Assembly: GCA_027365695.1 (NCBI GenBank)
Contig: DAHXMB010000053.1
Coordinates: forward strand, 1-31,932
Length of the DNA stretch: 31,932 nt
Direction: 5' to 3'
DNA from: Candidatus Acididesulfobacter sp.
GTDB taxonomy: Bacteria > SZUA-79 > Acidulodesulfobacterales > Acidulodesulfobacteraceae
Part shown: one piece after another, positions 7,176 through 24,913 of the stretch
How the letters are laid out: every line of letters starts with the position of its first letter
Position numbering within the stretch: the stretch's first letter is position 1
Translations under genes and position numbers: made by a program
The notes under the pieces: generated by a model
The model's database searches: none
The model's input: the letters and a program-made list of their open reading frames with translations, nothing else
What the model was told of the DNA's origin: nothing

Positions 7176-8233
7176 GAAAGATAAAAATTCTAATATTTTC
7201 TATCATCGTAAGTTTATTTGCGACGTTAACTCCGATAAAATCTTACGCTTTAATAGGTTGCGGTGCGTCTCCCGCAACTATGATACGTATATTTACGGAA
7301 TCTATCACTACCCTTTATAACGTCTTTCCAATATCGTTAGGAGGCGTTACGATAAATCCGTTCGGCAATCTTCCCAACTTCGAAAGTTGCGGCAGTTCTC
7401 CTGTTTGTATTTGTATGCTCGGGACTCCGCCGATTCCGCATCCCGGACTTACCGCAAGCTTATGGATGCCTACGGCGGTAATAGAGACGGTAAAAACTCC
7501 GTTTTGCTTTCCGTCATTAGGGCTTTCTATTCCCGGAGCTTCCGCTTATTTGGGAGACGCCAATAACGCGTCCCATAAACCCGGAAGCGGCGGAGAGATT
7601 AAACAACCGCAAAATACATCAGACGAAGTTCATTATATAGAATATCCTCTTTTTCTTCCGTTAAATTTATTTACGTCTATAACTTCCGGTAATATGAGTC
7701 AGGTATTGGGAAGTTTAGGAAATATAGGATATATCTCTGAAATAGACCCGACTTGGAAAAGCGATATGCTCTCAACCATATTGGACCCGGAGTCTATTCT
7801 TTTCGCAAATCCCATAGCGCAATTGTCTTGTATGGCAGATTCCGCAACGTCTGCCGTGGGTGAACCCTTAGACCCGATGTTTTGGTGTATGGGCGCATAC
7901 GGTTCTACTTATCCGGTAGCTCAGCAACTAAATTCTTTCGGCAACGTTCAAGGTTCGGCGGGACTTGCGGCAAGGACATTATTTCATTTATCGAGAATGC
8001 TTAAATTATGGAGTACGGAATCTTGCGCAGGTATTTGCGCGCCTATTCCTATGCCGATTTGGATTAAATCCGAATTTAGTTATTTTCCCGTCTATCCCGG
8101 AATGTATCCGATTAGAATTCCAATTGGTCAAACCGGTCTTATATGGGATCATGCCATAAATATGGCTATTCCGACCCAAAGCGATAACTTCGACTGGTTT
8201 ATGTATCAGCATTGGACTTTTTGTTTTTTATAA
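7172..8233 (+). CDS. traU: TraU
   Basis: LYNVFPISLGG, WMPTAVIETVKTPFCFPSLG, SEIDPTW, AQLSCMADS, MFWCMGAYGSTYP. Confidence 0.93.
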   Translation: MRKIKILIFSIIVSLFATLTPIKSYALIGCGASPATMIRIFTESITTLYNVFPISLGGVTINPFGNLPNFESCGSSPVCICMLGTPPIPHPGLTASLWMPTAVIETVKTPFCFPSLGLSIPGASAYLGDANNASHKPGSGGEIKQPQNTSDEVHYIEYPLFLPLNLFTSITSGNMSQVLGSLGNIGYISEIDPTWKSDMLSTILDPESILFANPIAQLSCMADSATSAVGEPLDPMFWCMGAYGSTYPVAQQLNSFGNVQGSAGLAARTLFHLSRMLKLWSTESCAGICAPIPMPIWIKSEFSYFPVYPGMYPIRIPIGQTGLIWDHAINMAIPTQSDNFDWFMYQHWTFCFL

Positions 8234-15320: not shown

Positions 15321-15755
15321 ATGGACGACAAAACTCAAATAAATATCTACACCGACGGAGCATGTTCCGGAAATCCGGGTCCGGGAGCATACGCCGCTAT
15401 ACTGCTATATAAAGATAAAGAAAAAGTAATATCCGGCTTTAAAGAGCAAACGACAAATCAAGAAATGGAAATATCGGCCGTCCTAAACGCCCTGAAAGCT
15501 ATTAAGAATAAAAATATAAGCATAAATCTTTATTCCGATTCCAAATACGCGTTGGACGGTATGTCCGACTGGATGCACGGCTGGGCTAAAAAGCAATGGA
15601 AAAAAGAAATTAAGCATAAAAATATTTGGCAGGAAATTTATAATCTTTATAACGCTTTAAAAATTAACTGCGTCTGGGTTAAAGGACACTCTGATAATTT
15701 ATACAACGAAAGATGCGATAAAATAGCGCGGAGCTTAATTAAAGAAAATAGGTAA
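15321..15755 (+). CDS. rnhA: Ribonuclease HI
   Basis: YTDGACSGNPGPG, TNQEME, YSDSKY, WVKGHS..YNERCD; acidic catalytic residues present. Confidence 0.95.
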   Translation: MDDKTQINIYTDGACSGNPGPGAYAAILLYKDKEKVISGFKEQTTNQEMEISAVLNALKAIKNKNISINLYSDSKYALDGMSDWMHGWAKKQWKKEIKHKNIWQEIYNLYNALKINCVWVKGHSDNLYNERCDKIARSLIKENR

Positions 15756-15766
15756 ATCTTAATCTT

Positions 15767-16444
15767 ATGGACAATAATCAAATAGTAATCTATGCCGAAA
15801 CGCCTATTACCAAGAACGGCAAGAAAACAGAACTCGTAGAAACCGATTTAAAGACTAATAATTATTACGAAAACGACAATATCGTTTTCTTTACCGCTTC
15901 GCAGATTAAAACTTTAACGGACGGCATAGATAACCCTTTCCATAAGCTCGTTATTCTTTTGTTATACGAAACCGGAGCAAGAATCGAAGAAGCAAGGACC
16001 TTAAAATTTAGCGATATAGACATCGGCAATGGACGGGTTAAAGTATTGACGTTAAAACAGCGGAAAAAAAATAAAATTTACCGCTATTTAAAAATATCCG
16101 ATAAATTATTGTCGTTAATTTTAAATCATAGGGTTACCGCTAAACTTACCGACGAGGATTTTATTTTATCCCAACGGCAAGGCAAACCCGCCATCACGAG
16201 AAAAGGAATAAGCCTTATGTTTAAATCTTACGTCGTTAAATTATTAGGTCAAAGCAATTTAGACAAAGCCCATCCACACGCCTTAAGGCATACGAGAGCC
16301 GTTCATTTGCTTGATAGCGGTATGAATATAATGCTGTTGAAAAACTTTTTGGGACACGCAAGCATATCGAACACGCTAATCTATCTTAAATACAGCAATA
16401 AGGACATGGCGGAAGCGATAAGCAGGGCGAATAACGGATTGTAA
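15767..16444 (+). CDS. Tyrosine recombinase, catalytic domain only (resolvase/invertase size)
   Basis: ETGARIEE, HPHALRH, LGHASISNTLIY (R-H-R-H-Y); 225 aa with no N-terminal core-binding domain. Confidence 0.92.
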   Translation: MDNNQIVIYAETPITKNGKKTELVETDLKTNNYYENDNIVFFTASQIKTLTDGIDNPFHKLVILLLYETGARIEEARTLKFSDIDIGNGRVKVLTLKQRKKNKIYRYLKISDKLLSLILNHRVTAKLTDEDFILSQRQGKPAITRKGISLMFKSYVVKLLGQSNLDKAHPHALRHTRAVHLLDSGMNIMLLKNFLGHASISNTLIYLKYSNKDMAEAISRANNGL

Positions 16445-17807: not shown

Positions 17808-18956
17808 ATGACAAATTCTTATAAAATAATAGAAATATTAGAAGTAAAAACAATAGGTGAAGTAGAAAAAATTATCGATGCGTTTAATAATAATTTTAGT
17901 AAAAACGACGTATATTTAATTATTAAAAAAGGTAAGTTAGTACTTTATATTAAAGAAATAGATATAGACCAATTTAAGATATTTTTCGATAAAATAAATA
18001 AAAAAACAAACAGTATTGATATTAAAATAATGCAGAATATTATTAAAAAAATAAAATCTATAAAAAGTTATGGCTTAAAAAATGGTAAAAGAAATTTCGT
18101 TGATTATAATAAAGAGAGAAAAGTGAAAGAAAGAAAAAATAAAACTAAAAAACGAGTGCAATATTATTATGCAATAGATAATGACTTTATAAAAAAAAAT
18201 AATGAAATACCAAATAAATATGAAAATAAAATAATGCAAGGCGACTGTCTAAATATATTGAAGGATATACCTGATAATACGATAGATTTAATTTTTACAT
18301 CTCCGCCTTATAATTTTGGTTTGGATTATAAAAATAGTCAGGATGAACATTATTGGGATGATTATTTTAAAAAACTTTTTGAAATATTTAATGAGTGCAT
18401 AAGAGTATTAAAATGGAGTGGCAGAATTATTGTGAATATCCAACCACTTTTTTCAGATTACATTCCTTCACATCATATTATTAGTAAATATTTTATAGAT
18501 AAAAAATTAATTTGGAAAGGTGAGATTTTATGGGAAAAAAACAATTATAATTGCAAATATACGGCGTGGGGTAGTTGGAAAAGTCCAAGCAGTCCTTATT
18601 TGAAATATACATGGGAATTTTTAGAAATATTTTTAAAAGGTGATTTGAAAAAAATAGGTGATAAGACTAATATTGATATTACAGACTCTGAATTTAAAGA
18701 ATGGGTCAATGCTAAATGGAATATAGCGCCTGAAAGGGATATGAATAAATTTGGGCATCCAGCTATGTTTCCAGAAAAGTTAGCGGAAAGGGTGTTAAAA
18801 CTATTTAGCTTTAAAAACGACATTATATTAGATCCATTCAATGGCGCAGGAACAACTACAATTGTGGCTAAAAAACTGAATAGAAGATATTTAGGCATTG
18901 ATATATCGCAAGAATATTGTAAAATTGCAGAGAAAAGATTAAAAGGAGAATTATAA
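17808..18956 (+). CDS. Beta-class amino (N4-C/N6-A) DNA methyltransferase with ~140-aa N-terminal extension
   Basis: Motif IV IFTSPPY precedes motif I LDPFNGAGTT; HPAMFPEKL. Confidence 0.93.
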   Translation: MTNSYKIIEILEVKTIGEVEKIIDAFNNNFSKNDVYLIIKKGKLVLYIKEIDIDQFKIFFDKINKKTNSIDIKIMQNIIKKIKSIKSYGLKNGKRNFVDYNKERKVKERKNKTKKRVQYYYAIDNDFIKKNNEIPNKYENKIMQGDCLNILKDIPDNTIDLIFTSPPYNFGLDYKNSQDEHYWDDYFKKLFEIFNECIRVLKWSGRIIVNIQPLFSDYIPSHHIISKYFIDKKLIWKGEILWEKNNYNCKYTAWGSWKSPSSPYLKYTWEFLEIFLKGDLKKIGDKTNIDITDSEFKEWVNAKWNIAPERDMNKFGHPAMFPEKLAERVLKLFSFKNDIILDPFNGAGTTTIVAKKLNRRYLGIDISQEYCKIAEKRLKGEL

Positions 18957-18960
18957 TTAT

Positions 18961-19785
18961 ATGCCACTAACCAGAAAACAAGTTCAATATATTAAGGAAA
19001 ATATTAATCGAAACTGTGTTCATGGAAATAATATACTTTCAAAAAAAGACAAAGAAGGAATCGAATATTTTTACAATGAATATATTAAATTTTATAAAAC
19101 AATGGAGATTGATAATATTGATGATAAAATCATCTCTTTTATAAATTACAAAGATTATGTCGCTAAAAACAATAGAACAACCGATAATAAACTAATATTT
19201 TCGTCGCAATCCAAATTTGAATCCACTATTTTAGAGGAATTTTTATATCACATTTTTAAAAATCTTATTGAAGAATATGATAATATTTTTGGGGCGGGTA
19301 GTGTAAAAGCATATAATAACTTATATTTTGCACCAACAGATATAAGAAGATTTAAGGAATATAATTTTATCAATATTAATAAAAAAGACCAAGATTTCGC
19401 TATTTATAAAAACGTGATTCTAAAAGATAATAATAAATCAATAGAGTTATCTATTCCAATAATAGCAATAGAATGTAAAACATATTTAGATAAGACAATG
19501 TTAGAAGGTAGCGTTGCAACAGCAGAAAAAATTAAATCCGGCAATCCTCATTGTAAATTTTACATTGTGACAGAAACCTACGAAGTTGACTTAAATGTTG
19601 ACCCATCAACGTCAAGAATTGACAATATTTTTGTATTAAAAAAAAGCAGAAACAATAATCAAGATTATCCAATATGTTCTGATGTTATTATGAATTTATA
19701 TAACGAAATTAAAAAACATTTAAATTCTAATTGGAGTAATATTGAAGAAAATATCAAAAATAAAGGAATTATTTTTGATAAATAA
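18961..19785 (+). CDS. Type II restriction endonuclease, Bpu10I-like PD-(D/E)xK family
   Basis: KFESTILEEF, KDQDFAI, IAIECKTYLDKTM; adjacent to the methyltransferase. Confidence 0.75.
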   Translation: MPLTRKQVQYIKENINRNCVHGNNILSKKDKEGIEYFYNEYIKFYKTMEIDNIDDKIISFINYKDYVAKNNRTTDNKLIFSSQSKFESTILEEFLYHIFKNLIEEYDNIFGAGSVKAYNNLYFAPTDIRRFKEYNFININKKDQDFAIYKNVILKDNNKSIELSIPIIAIECKTYLDKTMLEGSVATAEKIKSGNPHCKFYIVTETYEVDLNVDPSTSRIDNIFVLKKSRNNNQDYPICSDVIMNLYNEIKKHLNSNWSNIEENIKNKGIIFDK

Positions 19786-21034: not shown

Positions 21035-23119
21035 TTACTTTTTTGCTTTCTTTTTCATCGCCTTTTCTATAAACTCCCTGCAAACCTTAGCATTTTCTTT
21101 ATAATCCTTCGGCAGTTTCAATCCCTTTTCTTCGCTTAATTTCTCCGCAAATAATATTTGCTTATCGCTCGATTTATGCGCAGGTTGCGTTTTAAAGACT
21201 TTATCGATAAATTTAGAACATATCTCTATATTTTCTTTATACCCTTCCGGCAAACTTAAACCCTGCTCCTTCGCAAGTTTTTCGGCTAATTCAATTTGTT
21301 TATCGCTTGCTTTCGGCACGATTTTATTTTTCTCGATAAATTCCGAACAAATCTTGCCGTCGGTTTTATAACCGTCCGGCAACGCTATCCCCTGCTCCTT
21401 AGCAATACGCTCTGCATATTCTATCTGCTTCGGAGACGGAATATAATCGCCAAACGTAAAATCGATATTATGGTTTTTAAGATTATCGTAAATTTCTTTT
21501 ACTACGTCCTTATAGGTAAGTTTGCCTTTTGCTATTTCGTCTAATTTTTCTTCCATTAAAGCCGTGTAATTAACGTCGAAAAGTTTGTCGAATTTTCCGA
21601 CAAGATACTCTACCGCTTTAATGCCAAGTTCGGTCGGAATTATTTTTTTATCTTTAATCGCTATATAATACGGCTCTATCTTTGCTATCTTGCCGTCTTT
21701 GCCTTTATACGCTCTCATTTTTAAGTTTTTGATAGTCTGGGCGTAAGTGGACGGTCTACCGATGCCTTTATCTTCCAACTCTTTTATAATGGAACTTTCC
21801 GTAAATCTTGCCGGCGGCTTCGTTTTCCAATTCTTAAGATTAACGCCCAAAACGCTCGTTTTTCCTTTTTCGATACCGGATAATACGTTTTCTTCGCCTT
21901 TTTCTTCGTCGTTGTAAACCGATTTATAGCCTTTAAATTTCATTACGCTTGCATGCGCTTCGGCTATTACTCTGCCGGATTTTACCGTAATAACCGTCTG
22001 GTCGTATATGGCGGAAGACATCTGAGAAGCTATGAAACGGTTAAGGATTAAGTTATAGACCTTTAATTCGTCTTCGGATAATCCGTTAATGGATTTATTG
22101 ACGTCTGCAGGTCTAATGGCTTCGTGGGCGTCTTGGGAACCGTCTTTATTTTTATAAACGCGGTTTTCAAAATATTTATCGCCGAATTTAGAAATTATAT
22201 AGCCTTTTGCCATGCCGATAGCCTCGTCGGAAAGTCTGACGCTGTCGGTTCGCATATAAGTAATATAACCTTCTTCGTAAAGTTTCTGGGCTATCTTCAT
22301 AGCTTCTTCGCCGGATATTCCAAGCATTGAATTTACGGCTTGCTGATAGGTTGACGTGGTAAACGGCGCGGGCGGATTTCTTTTAATATCTTTATGCGTT
22401 ATATTTATTATATCTGCCAGCTTACCTTGCAAATAACCGACTATTTTTTCTGCAAGGGATTTATCCTTGATTTCCGTTAAAGTATTTTTTTCTTCTCCGT
22501 CTTTTCTAACGACCGTAGCTATAAATTTATTTCCGTTTTGCTCTAAGTTAAGTTCTACGGAGTATCTGTCTTCGGGAATAAAATTTTTAATTTCTTTTTC
22601 TCTTTCTACTATAATCCTTAACGCCGCCGTCTGCACCCTACCAGCCGATTTTGCGTCGTTTATGGCTTTTCTTAAATCGGGCGATAACCCGTATCCTATT
22701 AATCTATCCAATACCCTGCGGGCTTCCTGCGCGGAGACTAAATTCATATCTAAAGTCCTTAAATGCTTAAGCCCATCTTTTATTCCTTTTTCCGTTATTT
22801 CGTGAAACTCCGCCCTTTTATAATTTTTTAAATTTAACGCTTTGGTTAAGTGCCAGCCGATAGCCTCGCCTTCTCGGTCGGGGTCGCTTGCTATAATTAC
22901 GCTACCCGCTTTTTCCAAAGCTTTTTTAAGCTCGCCTATTATTTTATGTTTATCCGGAATAATGGAATATTTAGGTTTTAACGTTTCCAAATCGACGTTT
23001 AATTCTTTTGGGCTTAAATCCCTAATATGACCAACCGACGCTTTGACCGTATAGCCAGAGCCCAAAATTTTATTAATAGTTTGCGCCTTATGCGGCGATT
23101 CAACGATAATTAAATCCAT
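21035..23119 (-). CDS. topA: Type IA DNA topoisomerase with three C-terminal repeats
   Basis: TOPRIM IVESPHKA, ASDPDREGEAI, SAGRVQT, catalytic GYITYMRTDS, GIGRPSTYA. Confidence 0.95.
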   Translation of the reverse strand: MDLIIVESPHKAQTINKILGSGYTVKASVGHIRDLSPKELNVDLETLKPKYSIIPDKHKIIGELKKALEKAGSVIIASDPDREGEAIGWHLTKALNLKNYKRAEFHEITEKGIKDGLKHLRTLDMNLVSAQEARRVLDRLIGYGLSPDLRKAINDAKSAGRVQTAALRIIVEREKEIKNFIPEDRYSVELNLEQNGNKFIATVVRKDGEEKNTLTEIKDKSLAEKIVGYLQGKLADIINITHKDIKRNPPAPFTTSTYQQAVNSMLGISGEEAMKIAQKLYEEGYITYMRTDSVRLSDEAIGMAKGYIISKFGDKYFENRVYKNKDGSQDAHEAIRPADVNKSINGLSEDELKVYNLILNRFIASQMSSAIYDQTVITVKSGRVIAEAHASVMKFKGYKSVYNDEEKGEENVLSGIEKGKTSVLGVNLKNWKTKPPARFTESSIIKELEDKGIGRPSTYAQTIKNLKMRAYKGKDGKIAKIEPYYIAIKDKKIIPTELGIKAVEYLVGKFDKLFDVNYTALMEEKLDEIAKGKLTYKDVVKEIYDNLKNHNIDFTFGDYIPSPKQIEYAERIAKEQGIALPDGYKTDGKICSEFIEKNKIVPKASDKQIELAEKLAKEQGLSLPEGYKENIEICSKFIDKVFKTQPAHKSSDKQILFAEKLSEEKGLKLPKDYKENAKVCREFIEKAMKKKAKK

Positions 23120-23696
23120 GGAAACCTCCGTTAAATTTATAAAAAGTTAAGATTACAAAAGCTATGCCTATTAACTGAAAAACGGTATTCCAAAACAGGT
23201 CGTCGTATTTTATATGAGCCAGAGCGAACCGTTGAAACCTGCCATTCTTTTTAACGAAAATTCCTCCTTCGGTCGGCATATCCAAAAGTAGATGAAGCGG
23301 CCCGACGAATAGACCCTGTATTAATATCCAGTATTGAAATCCGCTCGGCAGAAATTTATTTCTCGGCAAATGCAACATCGCAACCGTTAAAAAAATAGCG
23401 GGCAATAATCCCCAAATAGTTGCCCTTAATAAGCTATGCGTCTTATAAGTCCTTACCGTAATAACGACTTCTTTCTTTTTCTTATTTTTACGCCCGAAAT
23501 TAAATAATCCCGAACGGTTTTTATTATCCTCCGGCAAATAAACCTTTTTCTTCTTATGTCCAAACGTATCTATTGCGGTATTGCCGATTATGGACAGTAT
23601 TCCGGCAGATATAAAAGAAGCGACAGGAGTAGTAAATAAATAACCGATAGCCGTTAGGACGCCTATACTAAATAGATTATGGGTTTTGGTTTTCAT
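23100..23696 (-). CDS. Membrane metal-dependent hydrolase, DUF1286-like
   Basis: MKTKTH, IDTFGH, RTYKTHS, GPLHLLLDMPTEGG, RFALAHIKYD. Confidence 0.7.
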   Translation of the reverse strand: MKTKTHNLFSIGVLTAIGYLFTTPVASFISAGILSIIGNTAIDTFGHKKKKVYLPEDNKNRSGLFNFGRKNKKKKEVVITVRTYKTHSLLRATIWGLLPAIFLTVAMLHLPRNKFLPSGFQYWILIQGLFVGPLHLLLDMPTEGGIFVKKNGRFQRFALAHIKYDDLFWNTVFQLIGIAFVILTFYKFNGGFHGFNYR

Positions 23697-23974
23697 TAGA
23701 AACGTGAACTATCTCTTTTTACCGTTAATATTTTTTCGACGAACTCTCCTTTTTGGATACAATCATCGTAATAGCTTTTACCGAACATATATTTATATAT
23801 TTTTTCCAGTTTCTCGCCGGATAATTCGGGAACGTCTTCTTGAGCAAATATAATGCCGAGTTCGTCTATCGCATCGAAAATATTTTCAAGCAAAATTTTG
23901 ACCCGCTCTTTAGTTTCTTTGCCCATTCTTTTCTTTATTCCTCTAAAGCGCATTTTGTCATAGTAAGCGGTCAT
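23696..23974 (-). CDS. 92-aa hypothetical protein
   Basis: AGGAG RBS; overlaps both neighbours. Confidence 0.75.
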   Translation of the reverse strand: MTAYYDKMRFRGIKKRMGKETKERVKILLENIFDAIDELGIIFAQEDVPELSGEKLEKIYKYMFGKSYYDDCIQKGEFVEKILTVKRDSSRF

Positions 23975-24225
23975 TGTTTCTCCTTTTTGAAATACCGCCG
24001 CAATAAATCTTCCGCATATTTATCCCGCAAACGGCAAATATGCACACTTAAATTATCTATACGATATTTCTTTTTGATTTTATAATCGGATAGCCCGTTG
24101 TTTATATCCGCCAGTATGTTATTTATATCTTCTAATAAATTTTCGCTGCTAACTCCGGCGCCTATTTTGGCTCCTACGCATAACTGCTCTATCTCTGCGA
24201 ACGCTTGAAACATTTTTTTCGTCAT
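23971..24225 (-). CDS. 84-aa hypothetical protein
   Basis: Overlaps the downstream gene; start lies 8 nt after the tRNA CCA. Confidence 0.65.
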   Translation of the reverse strand: MTKKMFQAFAEIEQLCVGAKIGAGVSSENLLEDINNILADINNGLSDYKIKKKYRIDNLSVHICRLRDKYAEDLLRRYFKKEKQ

Positions 24226-24233
24226 ATTTATAA

Positions 24234-24310
24234 TGGGGGCGGGAGCCGGATTCGAACCGGCGACCTCAGGACTATGAAACCTGCAAGCTACCTGACTGCT
24301 CTACCCCGCC
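24234..24310 (-). tRNA. 77-nt tRNA with CAU anticodon and encoded CCA (atypical tRNA-Met)
   Basis: GGCGGGG TA GAGC AGTCAGGTA GCTT G CAGGT TTCATAG TCCTG AGGTC GCCGG TTCGAAT CCGGC TCCCGCC C CCA folds as a cloverleaf. Confidence 0.9.
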
Positions 24311-24337
24311 AAATTCGTTATCCATTATTATTGCTCC

Positions 24338-24823
24338 TTAACTGCTTAATTGTCTTAACACTGCGTAAACTTTATTGGCGTAAATTAGTCCGGCTGTATA
24401 GTCGGCGGAATGATACGCCGCTATTCCTCTCCAGTTATAACCGTATCTTGCTATCTTTCTCGCAAGGACGTAAGCTCCGAGATACACGTCGTCGCAGGGT
24501 TTAAGCCCGTATCTTAAAGGATAATGCAACTTGTCAAACCAGAAAGAATTTACCTGCATAATACCGATATCTATCGATAAATTGCGGTATTTATCGACTA
24601 TATTTAAAGCGGCGTTATAGCTATTGGGAAAATAAGGCGTTCCTTCGACGTCTATGGCGTAAGGGTTAAATCCGCTTTCGACGTCGGCTATTGCCATAAG
24701 AACATCCTGAGGAACTTTATAAAAATTAGCCGCTTGGTTAAAGCAATAAGCCAAATCGGCGTCGGCTACGGACGGAATAAATAAAATAAGTAAAAGCGTT
24801 ATCGCTATTATTTTTTTAATCAT
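24338..24823 (-). CDS. Lytic transglycosylase (SLT/VirB1-like)
   Basis: Signal peptide; AIADVESGFNPYAI (catalytic Glu), DIGIMQVN, AYHS. Confidence 0.93.
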   Translation of the reverse strand: MIKKIIAITLLLILFIPSVADADLAYCFNQAANFYKVPQDVLMAIADVESGFNPYAIDVEGTPYFPNSYNAALNIVDKYRNLSIDIGIMQVNSFWFDKLHYPLRYGLKPCDDVYLGAYVLARKIARYGYNWRGIAAYHSADYTAGLIYANKVYAVLRQLSS

Positions 24824-24869: not shown

Positions 24870-24913
24870 TTATTGTTAGTATTATTATTATAATATGTTT
24901 GATTAAATGTCAA
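24870..24913 (-). promoter_or_regulatory. Promoter-like motif TTGACA-N15-TATAATAATAATACTAACAATAA
   Basis: Read directly upstream of the transglycosylase gene; near-identical copy at 28473-28516. Confidence 0.7.

What the first reader, a model, noticed from the sequence alone, without database searches (positions are those of the whole stretch)
24226..24337. Initiator-derived CAU tRNA with rewritten identity elements, inside an operon
Seen: retains initiator-like features (77 nt with extra D-loop base 17a, A11-U24, G29-C41, G30-C40) but has a G1-C72 pair, C73, a U31xU39 mismatch and G38; CCA is encoded. It lies 27 nt after the transglycosylase stop and 8 nt before the next ATG, which has no RBS. 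Known: formylation needs the C1xA72 mismatch and A73; P-site selection needs three G-C pairs; enteric VapC cleaves tRNAfMet at 38/39; phage tRNAs can carry nuclease-evading changes. Inference: a nuclease-resistant Met tRNA or decoy countering tRNA-targeting toxins/defence, possibly also an RNA-processing signal for the operon.
Basis: partly seen in the sequence, partly recalled or inferred. Interest (0 to 1): 0.8.

Follow-up and report, generated by a model that had tools for sequence, protein, structure and literature searches.

The report
Initiator-derived Met tRNA on a conjugative element
A real transfer-RNA gene, descended from the start-codon (initiator) tRNA but with its top end rewritten to look like an ordinary methionine tRNA, sits inside a DNA-transfer operon of a conjugative element; it has been kept by selection in some relatives and lost in others, and its benefit is still untested.

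Summary

The setting is a conjugative element, not a phage. It has an F-like type IV secretion system, a coupling protein, an HD relaxase candidate, SLT, DUF1286 and topoisomerase III. The host is a 60%-complete MAG close to Candidatus Acidulodesulfobacterium.

The tRNA body is initiator-type. The top five acceptor pairs equal the host's elongator tRNA-Met, followed by C73.

Five sequence variants occur in closely related elements. Two lineages whose synonymous sites are about 63% identical keep the tRNA about 90% identical, which indicates purifying selection. One common variant has a damaged acceptor stem. One relative deleted the gene and more distant relatives lack it.

G1-C72 and C73 are conserved. 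The U31xU39 mismatch and G38 are not conserved in the clade, but the same anticodon arm recurs in two unrelated mobile-element tRNAs. Well-known phages carry similar initiator-like tRNA-Met genes.

Best reading: accessory, non-formylatable, elongator-type or dual-use Met tRNA cut out of the operon transcript. The nuclease-evasion idea stays untested; the host has at least 14 PIN genes. No expression data were available.

The parts
24234..24310 (-). tRNA gene, anticodon CAU, 77 nt, CCA encoded. Initiator-type body with G1-C72, C73, U31xU39 and G38.
   Evidence: ARAGORN; Rfam RF00005 at 55.2 bits; sequence read; variants in relatives.
24272..24339 (-). Remnant of a deleted RusA-like gene: Shine-Dalgarno AAGGAG (24339-24334), ATG (24325-24323) and a 17-codon frame that runs into the tRNA and ends at U36-A37-G38 (24274-24272).
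   Evidence: Comparison with L020, L021 and L017, where a 128-140 aa RusA-like ORF (Pfam RusA) lies between SLT and the tRNA.
24338..24823 (-). SLT lytic transglycosylase, the gene upstream of the tRNA.
   Evidence: Pfam PF01464, E 6.8e-15.
24884..24913 (-). Promoter-like site TTGACA-18-AATAAT (11 of 12) ahead of SLT; candidate promoter of the slt-tRNA-topoisomerase operon.
   Evidence: Consensus scan. The number of sites in the region does not exceed that in shuffles, so this is a lead only.
23971..24225 (-). 84-aa ORF of unknown function. It starts 8 nt after the tRNA's CCA and has no Shine-Dalgarno sequence.
   Evidence: ORF list; translation; no Pfam or PHROG family. Present in L020 and L065, mostly deleted in L021.
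23696..23974 (-). 92-aa ORF of unknown function.
   Evidence: Homologous ORF in L020 and L021.
23100..23696 (-). DUF1286 / YdjM-like membrane protein. In relatives without the insert it overlaps SLT directly. In L017 and L059 its start follows the tRNA by 8 nt.
   Evidence: Pfam PF06939; loci L013, L017 and L059.
21035..23119 (-). Topoisomerase III-type (Toprim + Topoisom_bac), a downstream gene of the same operon.
   Evidence: Pfam E 1.6e-111.
24910..27752 (-). HD-domain relaxase candidate (24910-26346) and type IV coupling protein (26343-27752); they mark the element as conjugative.
   Evidence: Pfam; homologues.

Best explanation
This is a genuine tRNA gene of initiator ancestry. A narrow clade of a conjugative element carries it as dispensable cargo. 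The element has an F-like type IV secretion system, an HD relaxase candidate, SLT and topoisomerase III, and lives in relatives of Candidatus Acidulodesulfobacterium.

Shown:
- It folds as a canonical cloverleaf with all tertiary-contact nucleotides.
- It lies in the sense direction between genes, with no terminator-like site in the scan and no strong promoter-like site of its own.
- It has evolved far more slowly than synonymous sites.
- Its acceptor stem has been converted from the initiator form (1x72 mismatch, A73) to G1-C72. This makes pairs 1-5 identical to the host's elongator tRNA-Met.
- It keeps only two of the three anticodon-stem G-C pairs.

Inferred from the established rules for E. 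coli tRNAfMet (1x72 mismatch needed for formylation and for exclusion from EF-Tu; three G-C pairs for P-site selection; CAU as the main MetRS determinant):
- It is transcribed with the slt-topoisomerase operon.
- It is released by RNase P and 3' trimming.
- It is charged with methionine and not formylated, or only poorly.
- EF-Tu delivers it as an extra elongator-type, possibly dual-use, Met tRNA.
- Excision would cut the operon mRNA 8 nt before the next start codon, leaving a short-leader message without a Shine-Dalgarno sequence.

The selective benefit is not established.
For: It is a tRNA.

Initiator ancestry:
- The best matches in 41 related genomes are initiator tRNAs, 80% identical over positions 2-72.
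- Identity is 78-79% to initiators against 73% and 68% to the host's elongator Met and Ile2-like tRNAs.
- A11-U24 and the GAGC/GCUU D arm are initiator-type (rules in PMC7949028).

Elongator-type acceptor: GGCGG/CCGCC at pairs 1-5 equals the host elongator Met on contig C90.

Purifying selection:
- Between the window lineage and the L017 lineage, third positions at conserved four-fold-type residues are 59-65% identical in four flanking genes.
- The tRNA is 90-91% identical. It shows 8 differing columns of 77 (6 substitutions plus a 2-nt gap) where about 28 are expected, binomial P about 1e-7.
- All three stem substitutions keep pairing: 7:66 G.U/A-U, 28:42 A-U/G.U, 49:65 G-C/G.U.
- The tRNA has about 64% G+C in a 37% G+C element.
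- The neighbouring RusA-like gene was deleted in the window while the tRNA was kept intact.

Operon context: a promoter-like site lies ahead of SLT and no minus-strand terminator-like site lies near the tRNA.

The 8-nt spacing between CCA and ATG is kept before two different downstream genes.

The host has fmt-like and TilS genes, so both modification systems are present.
Against:
- C73 is not the discriminator of any normal Met tRNA and may lower charging by MetRS. This is general knowledge and was not tested here.
- Each variant carries some defect. The window type has U31xU39 and G38. L017 has U56 in place of the invariant C56. The L060 type, seen in six assemblies, has an extra base in the acceptor 3' strand and UCA in place of CCA.
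- The gene is deleted in L021 and absent from L013-15, so it is dispensable.
- AUG has no synonymous codon, so codon-supply logic gives no obvious reason to carry an extra elongator Met tRNA. AUG makes up 2.0% of codons in both element and host.
- Five sequences give no compensatory double changes.
Confidence: 0.45

Rival explanations
1. Nuclease-evasion or decoy tRNA. The element carries a Met tRNA whose anticodon arm (U31, U32, changed 38/39) is not recognised by a host or competitor anticodon nuclease that cuts the initiator or a Met tRNA. A VapC-type PIN toxin is the example. The tRNA would either keep translation going or soak up the toxin.
For: - The arm GGUUUCAUAGUCC (U31xU39 with G38) recurs in two other mobile-element tRNAs with quite different acceptor and T stems: L033 in a tRNA array, and L070 in a phage-like contig with an initiator-type A1xA72/A73 end.
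- U31-U32 arms with altered 37-39 occur in the tRNA-Met genes of phages phiEa21-4 and outra and in the L034 array.
- The host MAG, 60% complete, has at least 14 PIN-domain frames of about 135 aa.
- VapCs of enterics and Leptospira cut initiator tRNA in the anticodon loop (PMC5175351).
- Phage tRNAs with anticodon-loop changes have been proposed to evade such enzymes (PMC10264068).
Against: - Positions 38 and 39 differ between the two lineages of the same element: G38/U39 against A38/G39.
- Some copies are damaged or deleted.
- The targets of the host PIN proteins are unknown.
- No PIN gene lies in the window.
- With G1-C72 the tRNA is not expected to work as a formylated initiator, so it could not simply replace a cleaved tRNAfMet.
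- The recurrence was found with patterns that fixed part of the arm, so its frequency is not measured.
Confidence: 0.2
2. Hitchhiking relic. The tRNA was acquired together with the RusA-like gene and small ORFs as one insert. It is no longer useful and is slowly decaying.
For: - The insert is absent from the 78%-identity relatives, where SLT overlaps DUF1286 directly.
- The tRNA is deleted in L021.
- There are lesions at conserved positions: U56 in L017; an acceptor bulge and loss of CCA in the L060 type; the U31xU39 mismatch in the window type.
- The Rfam score of 55 bits is lower than the 65-67 bits of host-family initiators.
Against: - Divergence is four-fold lower than at synonymous sites of the flanking genes, including the adjacent RusA-like gene.
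- High G+C is kept in an AT-rich element.
- Stem changes keep pairing.
- The neighbouring gene was deleted precisely while the tRNA was spared.
- L059 carries a variant without any obvious lesion.
Confidence: 0.15
3. The element acts mainly in cis on the RNA. The tRNA fold is an RNase P / 3'-end processing site ('tRNA punctuation'). It separates the upstream (slt, RusA-like) and downstream (84-aa ORF or DUF1286, topoisomerase) parts of the transcript. It also creates a short-leader mRNA for the next gene, which has no Shine-Dalgarno sequence.
For: - The stop codon of the upstream ORF lies inside the tRNA in every variant: at U8-A9-G10 in L017, and at U36-A37-G38 in L020 and the window.
- The CCA-to-ATG distance is 8 nt before two different downstream genes, neither with a Shine-Dalgarno sequence. 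Other genes of the element do have AGGAG-type sites.
- L070 shows the same layout in a phage-like contig, with the tRNA 12 nt before an ATG.
Against: - A processing signal would not need a conserved CAU anticodon arm or D arm.
- The L060-type changes fall in the acceptor and T region, the parts RNase P needs most.
- Relatives without the tRNA express the same downstream genes by ordinary overlap coupling.
- No RNA ends are available.
Confidence: 0.12
4. It is tRNA-Ile2. TilS converts C34 to lysidine, and the tRNA reads AUA, the commonest Ile codon in this AT-rich host and element.
For: - AUA makes up 4.0% of codons in the element and 4.9% in the host, about twice the share of AUG.
- The host encodes TilS.
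Against: - The host's own Ile2-like tRNA (contig C181) has C4-G69 and C5-G68, the pairs TilS uses in E. coli. The window tRNA has G4-C69 and G5-C68, like the Met tRNAs.
- The discriminator is C73 and position 38 is G, where IleRS uses A73 and A38 (general knowledge).
- The body is initiator-type, and identity to the Ile2-like tRNA is the lowest of the three, at 68%.
Confidence: 0.05

Closest known systems
Bacterial initiator tRNA (tRNAfMet), for example the initiators of the host family (loci L003-L010)
   Same: CAU anticodon; A11-U24 with the GAGC D stem; 9-nt D loop; G2-C71, C3-G70, G4-C69 and G5-C68; G29-C41 and G30-C40; variable loop AGGUC. Identity is 78-80%.
   Different: G1-C72 in place of the 1x72 mismatch; C73 in place of A73; third G-C pair replaced by U31xU39; U32 and G38 in place of C32 and A38; U25 in place of C25.
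Initiator-like tRNA-Met genes of phages (Erwinia phage phiEa21-4, Escherichia phage outra, Erwinia jumbo phage pEa_SNUABM_47) and of uncultured viral contigs (L042, L070, L034, L033)
   Same: An initiator-type D arm is combined with a paired or atypical 1:72, a pyrimidine or atypical base at 73, and U31-U32 arms with a weak or missing 31:39 pair. L042 shares G1-C72, C73 and the whole acceptor stem and D arm. L070 and L033 share the exact anticodon arm.
   Different: Those lie in phage genomes, mostly within tRNA clusters. This one is a single tRNA inside a transfer-region operon of a conjugative element. No function has been shown for any of them.
E. coli tRNAfMet mutants with a 1:72 base pair (RajBhandary laboratory) and the dual-use mitochondrial tRNA-Met
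   Same: An initiator body with a paired 1:72 end. In E. coli such mutants lose formylation and gain elongator activity. In mitochondria a G1-U72 tRNA-Met is partly formylated and serves both steps (PMC7949028).
   Different: Those are laboratory mutants or organellar tRNAs. This is a natural gene on a mobile element, and C73 is an extra change.
tRNA genes co-transcribed with protein genes (E. coli metY-nusA-infB and the tufB operon), and tRNA genes on ICEs and plasmids
   Same: A tRNA is matured from a polycistronic transcript, and mobile elements can carry tRNA genes. A 2026 preprint reports that plasmid tRNAs sit mostly on large non-mobilizable plasmids.
   Different: Here the tRNA sits between protein genes. 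The upstream stop codon lies inside the tRNA and the next start codon is 8 nt after the CCA. The element is a small conjugative one.

Membership tests
tRNA (Rfam RF00005) | Score above the gathering threshold, cloverleaf fold, conserved tertiary nucleotides | tested here: met
   55.2 bits against a gathering score of 29. 20 of 21 stem pairs are standard. U8, A14, G18, G19, U33, U54, U55, C56, A58 and C61 are present.
Bacterial initiator tRNA (tRNAfMet) | Mismatch at 1x72 (needed for formylation and for exclusion from EF-Tu) | tested here: not met
   G1-C72 in all five variants. Host-family initiators have C1xA72 or A1xA72.
Bacterial initiator tRNA (tRNAfMet) | Three consecutive G-C pairs: 29:41, 30:40, 31:39 | tested here: not met
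   G29-C41 and G30-C40 are present. Position 31:39 is UxU in the window type and U.G in L017 and L059.
Bacterial initiator tRNA (tRNAfMet) | A11-U24 in the D stem; G2-C71 and C3-G70 | tested here: met
   Read from the sequence; invariant in the five variants.
Elongator tRNA-Met | CAU anticodon and a Watson-Crick 1:72 pair; acceptor stem like the host's elongator Met | tested here: met
   Pairs 1-5 are identical to the host tRNA on contig C90.
Elongator tRNA-Met | A73 discriminator and an elongator-type D arm (GCUC/GAGC) | tested here: not met
   C73, and an initiator-type D arm GAGC/GCUU.
Elongator tRNA-Met | Charged with Met, bound by EF-Tu, not formylated | not testable with these tools
   Needs biochemical assays.
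tRNA-Ile2 (lysidine) | TilS acceptor-stem determinants C4-G69 and C5-G68; A73 and A38 for IleRS | tested here: not met
   G4-C69, G5-C68, C73 and G38. The host's Ile2-like tRNA (C181) has the C-G pairs.
Mobile-element tRNAs proposed to evade anticodon nucleases (van den Berg et al. 2023) | Anticodon-loop or stem differences from the host counterpart at or near a known cleavage site | tested here: met
   U31, U32, G38 and U39, against G31, C32, A38 and C39 in host-family initiators. These differences are not uniform within the clade.
Mobile-element tRNAs proposed to evade anticodon nucleases (van den Berg et al. 2023) | The host has a nuclease that targets the counterpart tRNA, and the element's tRNA resists it | tested here: inconclusive
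   At least 14 PIN-domain frames in the host MAG. Their targets are unknown and resistance cannot be tested here.
tRNA-gene attachment site of an integrating element | Only the 3' part of a host tRNA is present, it is identical to the host gene, and it lies next to an integrase at the element's end | tested here: not met
   A full-length tRNA in mid-operon, only about 80% identical to host-family initiators. The longest shared block is the 11-nt T loop region. The integrase-family gene is 8 kb away.

The most novel reading that the evidence does not exclude
The window tRNA may belong to an unrecognised class of initiator-derived Met tRNAs on mobile elements, both phages and conjugative elements. 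Their shared design would be an initiator D arm, a paired or altered 1:72, a non-A discriminator, and a U31-U32 arm with a weak or unpaired 31:39. Such tRNAs could act like mitochondrial tRNA-Met, as dual initiator/elongator tRNAs. Alternatively they could be invisible to PIN-type toxins that shut down translation by cutting the host initiator. Either way the element could keep translating during toxin activation, for instance on entry into a new cell. Excision of the tRNA could also produce a short-leader mRNA that such a tRNA would help to initiate.
Probability: 0.12. Interest if true: 0.8.

Novelty: new variant of a known kind. Interest (0 to 1): 0.45.

Why it matters
Why mobile elements carry tRNA genes is a long-standing question. 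It has mostly been discussed for phages, in terms of codon supply. A lone Met tRNA cannot be explained by codon supply.

This one shows a natural version of the laboratory switch from initiator to elongator (a 1:72 base pair). It sits in a conjugation operon and has been maintained by selection. The same unusual anticodon arm turns up in unrelated phage-like tRNAs. That points to a common pressure on the anticodon arm of initiator-type tRNAs of mobile elements, with toxin nucleases as the obvious candidate.

If confirmed, this would extend the 'tRNA as counter-defence' idea from phages to conjugative elements. It would also supply a defined substrate pair, host initiator against element tRNA, for testing the many PIN toxins of this host.

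If it proves to be merely an extra Met tRNA, the finding is ordinary.

Tried and rejected
- **Phage context: rejected.** Pfam shows an F-like type IV secretion system, a coupling protein, SLT and topoisomerase III.
- **JGI metagenome pattern scan for the D-arm-to-anticodon stretch.** It gave 16 hits, 14 of them chance matches in coding DNA and 2 tRNAs in arrays. None came from the element family.
- **Genome-collection pattern scan.** It found only the known relative (G049 / JAJZJD01) and one Bacteroidetes MAG.
- **Viral scan with the 3' end of the tRNA.** No hit.
- **PLSDB search.** No close relative of the element. The tRNA matches there were ordinary initiators on large replicons.
- **Is the tRNA linked to the RusA-like gene in general? 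No.** Homologues of that gene in a phage-like contig, a Rep3/ParAB plasmid and other contigs have no tRNA beside them.
- **Covariation test on the five variants.** Too little variation; no double changes.
- **Attachment-site reading: rejected** (see membership test).
- **Is the 3' cluster of changes in the L060 type a special recombination patch?** Differences between L020 and L060 are patchy throughout at 96% identity, so it is not distinctive.
- **Exact look-up of two host proteins to name the host.** Not on record. A homology search with CarB then placed the host.
- **Literature search** for phage or plasmid 'initiator-like tRNA' found nothing specific. The Winther and Gerdes 2011 paper is not held, so the exact 38/39 cleavage site was not checked against a source.

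Full report
**1. What is there**

ARAGORN finds a single tRNA in the window, tRNA-Met(CAU) at 24234-24310 on the minus strand. Rfam's tRNA model matches at 55.2 bits against a gathering score of 29, E 1.8e-9.

- 77 nt with a 9-nt D loop
- A11-U24 and G10.U25
- G29-C41 and G30-C40
- G1-C72 and C73, followed by an encoded CCA
- a U31xU39 mismatch and the loop UUCAUAG (G38)

All the usual tertiary-contact nucleotides are present. The SLT stop is 27 nt upstream. The next ATG (24225) is 8 nt downstream and has no Shine-Dalgarno sequence.

**2. Setting**

The window is a whole 31.9-kb contig of a 2.04-Mb MAG. The MAG has 30% G+C, 243 contigs and is 60.6% complete.

The contig is a conjugative element, not a phage. 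It encodes TrbI, TraV, TraC, TraU and TraN, an S26 peptidase, a thioredoxin-fold protein, a coupling protein, an HD-domain relaxase candidate, SLT, DUF1286 and topoisomerase III. It also encodes a Bpu10I-type restriction-modification pair, RNase H and a small integrase-family protein.

A promoter-like site (TTGACA-18-AATAAT) precedes SLT. No terminator-like site follows the tRNA on its strand. The tRNA is therefore most simply read as part of one operon: slt, tRNA, 84-aa ORF, 92-aa ORF, DUF1286 and topoisomerase.

The host's CarB is 77-80% identical to proteins named Candidatus Acidulodesulfobacterium. The host order has only 38 species genomes in the collection searched. The relaxase candidate occurs in two of them, in different genera. 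This supports the host assignment.

**3. Ancestry**

The MAG has two other CAU tRNAs:
- an elongator Met on contig C90
- an Ile2-like tRNA on contig C181, with C4-G69 and C5-G68

Its initiator was not assembled.

In 41 related genomes the best DNA matches to the window tRNA are initiator tRNAs, 80% identical over positions 2-72. Global identity is 78-79% to initiators, 73% to the host elongator Met and 68% to the Ile2-like tRNA. The D arm (GAGC/GCUU with A11-U24) is the initiator type (rules in PMC7949028).

The top five acceptor pairs, however, equal those of the host's elongator Met. Changing position 1 to G and position 72 to C is what makes them equal.

**4. Relatives**

Homologues of the relaxase candidate and of a RusA-like protein led to contigs of related elements.

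| Locus | Relaxase identity to window | Arrangement between SLT and DUF1286 |
|---|---|---|
| L013-15 | 78% | SLT overlaps DUF1286 directly; no tRNA |
| L017-19 and genome G049 | 87% | SLT, RusA-like ORF, tRNA, then DUF1286 start 8 nt later |
| L020 | 96% | SLT, RusA-like ORF, tRNA, 84-aa ORF, 87-aa ORF, DUF1286 |
| L021 | 88% | RusA-like ORF kept; the tRNA and most of the 84-aa ORF are deleted |
| Window | - | RusA-like ORF deleted between short repeats; its Shine-Dalgarno site, ATG and five codons are left fused to the tRNA |

The tRNA therefore belongs to an insert at the SLT/DUF1286 junction, found only in a narrow clade.

RusA-like homologues in other mobile elements have no tRNA beside them.

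**5. Variants**

Five versions exist:

| Variant | Source | Differences |
|---|---|---|
| V1 | window | G7 |
| V2 | L020 | A7 |
| V3 | L060-65, six assemblies | V2 plus a run of changes from the T loop to the 3' end; this leaves a 6-bp acceptor with an extra base and UCA in place of CCA |
| V4 | L017 type | D loop 2 nt shorter, G28, A38, G39, U56, A57 |
| V5 | L059 | V4 with the normal C56 |

G1-C72, C73, A11-U24, G29-C41, G30-C40 and U31-U32 are shared by all five. The U31xU39 mismatch and G38 are limited to V1-V3. V4 and V5 have U31.G39 and A38.

**6. Selection**

I compared the window lineage with the L017 lineage. Third codon positions at conserved four-fold-type residues are 59-65% identical in the relaxase candidate, SLT, topoisomerase and the adjacent RusA-like gene. 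The tRNA is 90-91% identical.

That is 8 differing columns of 77 (6 substitutions plus a 2-nt gap) where about 28 would be expected, binomial P about 1e-7.

The three stem substitutions all keep pairing, and the G+C content stays high. This argues against a freely decaying pseudogene.

Against that, the lesions in V3 and V4, the deletion in L021 and the absence from L013-15 show that the gene is dispensable. Five sequences are too few for covariation statistics.

**7. Wider class**

Similar chimeric CAU tRNAs are present in other mobile elements:

| Source | Position 1:72 | Position 73 | Anticodon arm |
|---|---|---|---|
| Erwinia phage phiEa21-4 | A1-U72 | U73 | U31xU39 |
| Escherichia phage outra | C1xC72 | U73 | U31.G39 |
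| Erwinia jumbo phage | U1-A72 | U73 | - |
| IMG/VR contig L042 | G1-C72 | C73 | different arm; same acceptor stem and D arm as the window tRNA |
| tRNA array L034 | C1xC72 | C73 | U31xU39 |
| L033, tRNA array | U1-A72 | A73 | GGUUUCAUAGUCC, identical to the window |
| L070, phage-like contig | A1xA72 (initiator-type) | A73 | GGUUUCAUAGUCC, identical to the window |

The acceptor and T stems of L033 and L070 differ from the window's by compensatory changes.

The design is therefore not unique to this element, and the anticodon arm looks selected rather than accidental. The searches that found these tRNAs fixed part of the arm, so frequencies cannot be stated.

**8. Mechanism**

From the established rules for E. 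coli tRNAfMet (PMC7949028), a G1-C72 pair should block formylation and allow EF-Tu binding. Two G-C pairs weaken P-site selection. The CAU anticodon should direct charging by MetRS.

I therefore read the gene as an accessory elongator-type, possibly dual-use, Met tRNA. It would be released from the operon transcript by RNase P and 3' trimming, and excision would leave a short-leader mRNA for the next gene. These steps are inferred, not shown.

The host has fmt-like and TilS genes. The Ile2 reading is unlikely despite heavy AUA use, because the TilS and IleRS determinants are missing.

**9.

It remains possible. The host MAG has at least 14 PIN-domain frames. VapCs of other bacteria cut initiator tRNA in the anticodon loop. 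A published hypothesis says phage tRNAs evade such enzymes through anticodon-loop changes.

On the other side, positions 38/39 vary within the clade, the toxins' targets are unknown, and a tRNA without the 1x72 mismatch cannot simply replace the initiator.

**10. Verdict**

It is a new variant of a known kind, the tRNA genes carried by mobile elements. Two things are unusual: the natural conversion of an initiator into an elongator-type tRNA, and its place inside a conjugation operon. Its function is unproven, and I rate the interest as moderate.

Noticed in passing
window 24272-24339 (-): A RusA-like Holliday-junction resolvase gene present in relatives (L020, L021, L017) has been deleted here between short repeats (ACGA[AT]TT). 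Its strong Shine-Dalgarno site and ATG now drive a 17-codon frame through the 5' half of the tRNA. In relatives the RusA-like stop codon also lies inside the tRNA.
   Followed up: yes
host genome G000, 15 places (for example C7:996-1346, C126:11632-11985): At least 14 PIN-domain (VapC-like) frames of about 135 aa above the Pfam cut-off in a 60%-complete 2-Mb MAG. This is a high density of putative toxin nucleases; their targets are unknown.
   Followed up: partly
L070:2434-2508 (-), IMG/VR UViG 3300020164_000115: A phage-like contig carries an initiator-type tRNA (A1xA72, A73) with the same D loop and the same anticodon arm (U31xU39, G38) as the window tRNA. It too sits between ORFs, 12 nt before an ATG.
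   Followed up: partly
L041:5452-5524 (+) and 7218-7290 (-), Bacteroidetes MAG SBGR01000033: An initiator tRNA and a second initiator-like CAU tRNA (G1.U72, mismatched T stem) flank a 386-aa ORF. This may be an integration scar or another mobile-element tRNA; it was not analysed.
   Followed up: no
L060-L065 (six assemblies), tRNA 3' end: The most often sampled variant of the element's tRNA has an extra base in the acceptor 3' strand, G49.U65, C60 and UCA in place of CCA. It is either a tolerated oddity or a dead copy.
   Followed up: partly
window 23696-24225 (-): Two small ORFs (84 and 92 aa) between the tRNA and DUF1286 have no Pfam or PHROG family. They are variably present among relatives.
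   Followed up: partly
window 17808-19785 (+), 15321-16444 (+): The cargo includes an N6/N4 DNA methylase with a Bpu10I-family restriction enzyme, an RNase H and a short (225 aa) integrase-family protein. Relatives carry a different restriction-modification pair (BsaWI-type in L013) at the corresponding end.
   Followed up: no
window 24910-27752 (-): The only relaxase candidate is an HD-domain protein with a weak Pfam HD hit (E about 1e-3) that overlaps the coupling-protein gene. Homologues at about 30% identity are widespread in Desulfobacterota-type MAGs and in Geobacter, Campylobacter and Aliarcobacter plasmids.
   Followed up: partly
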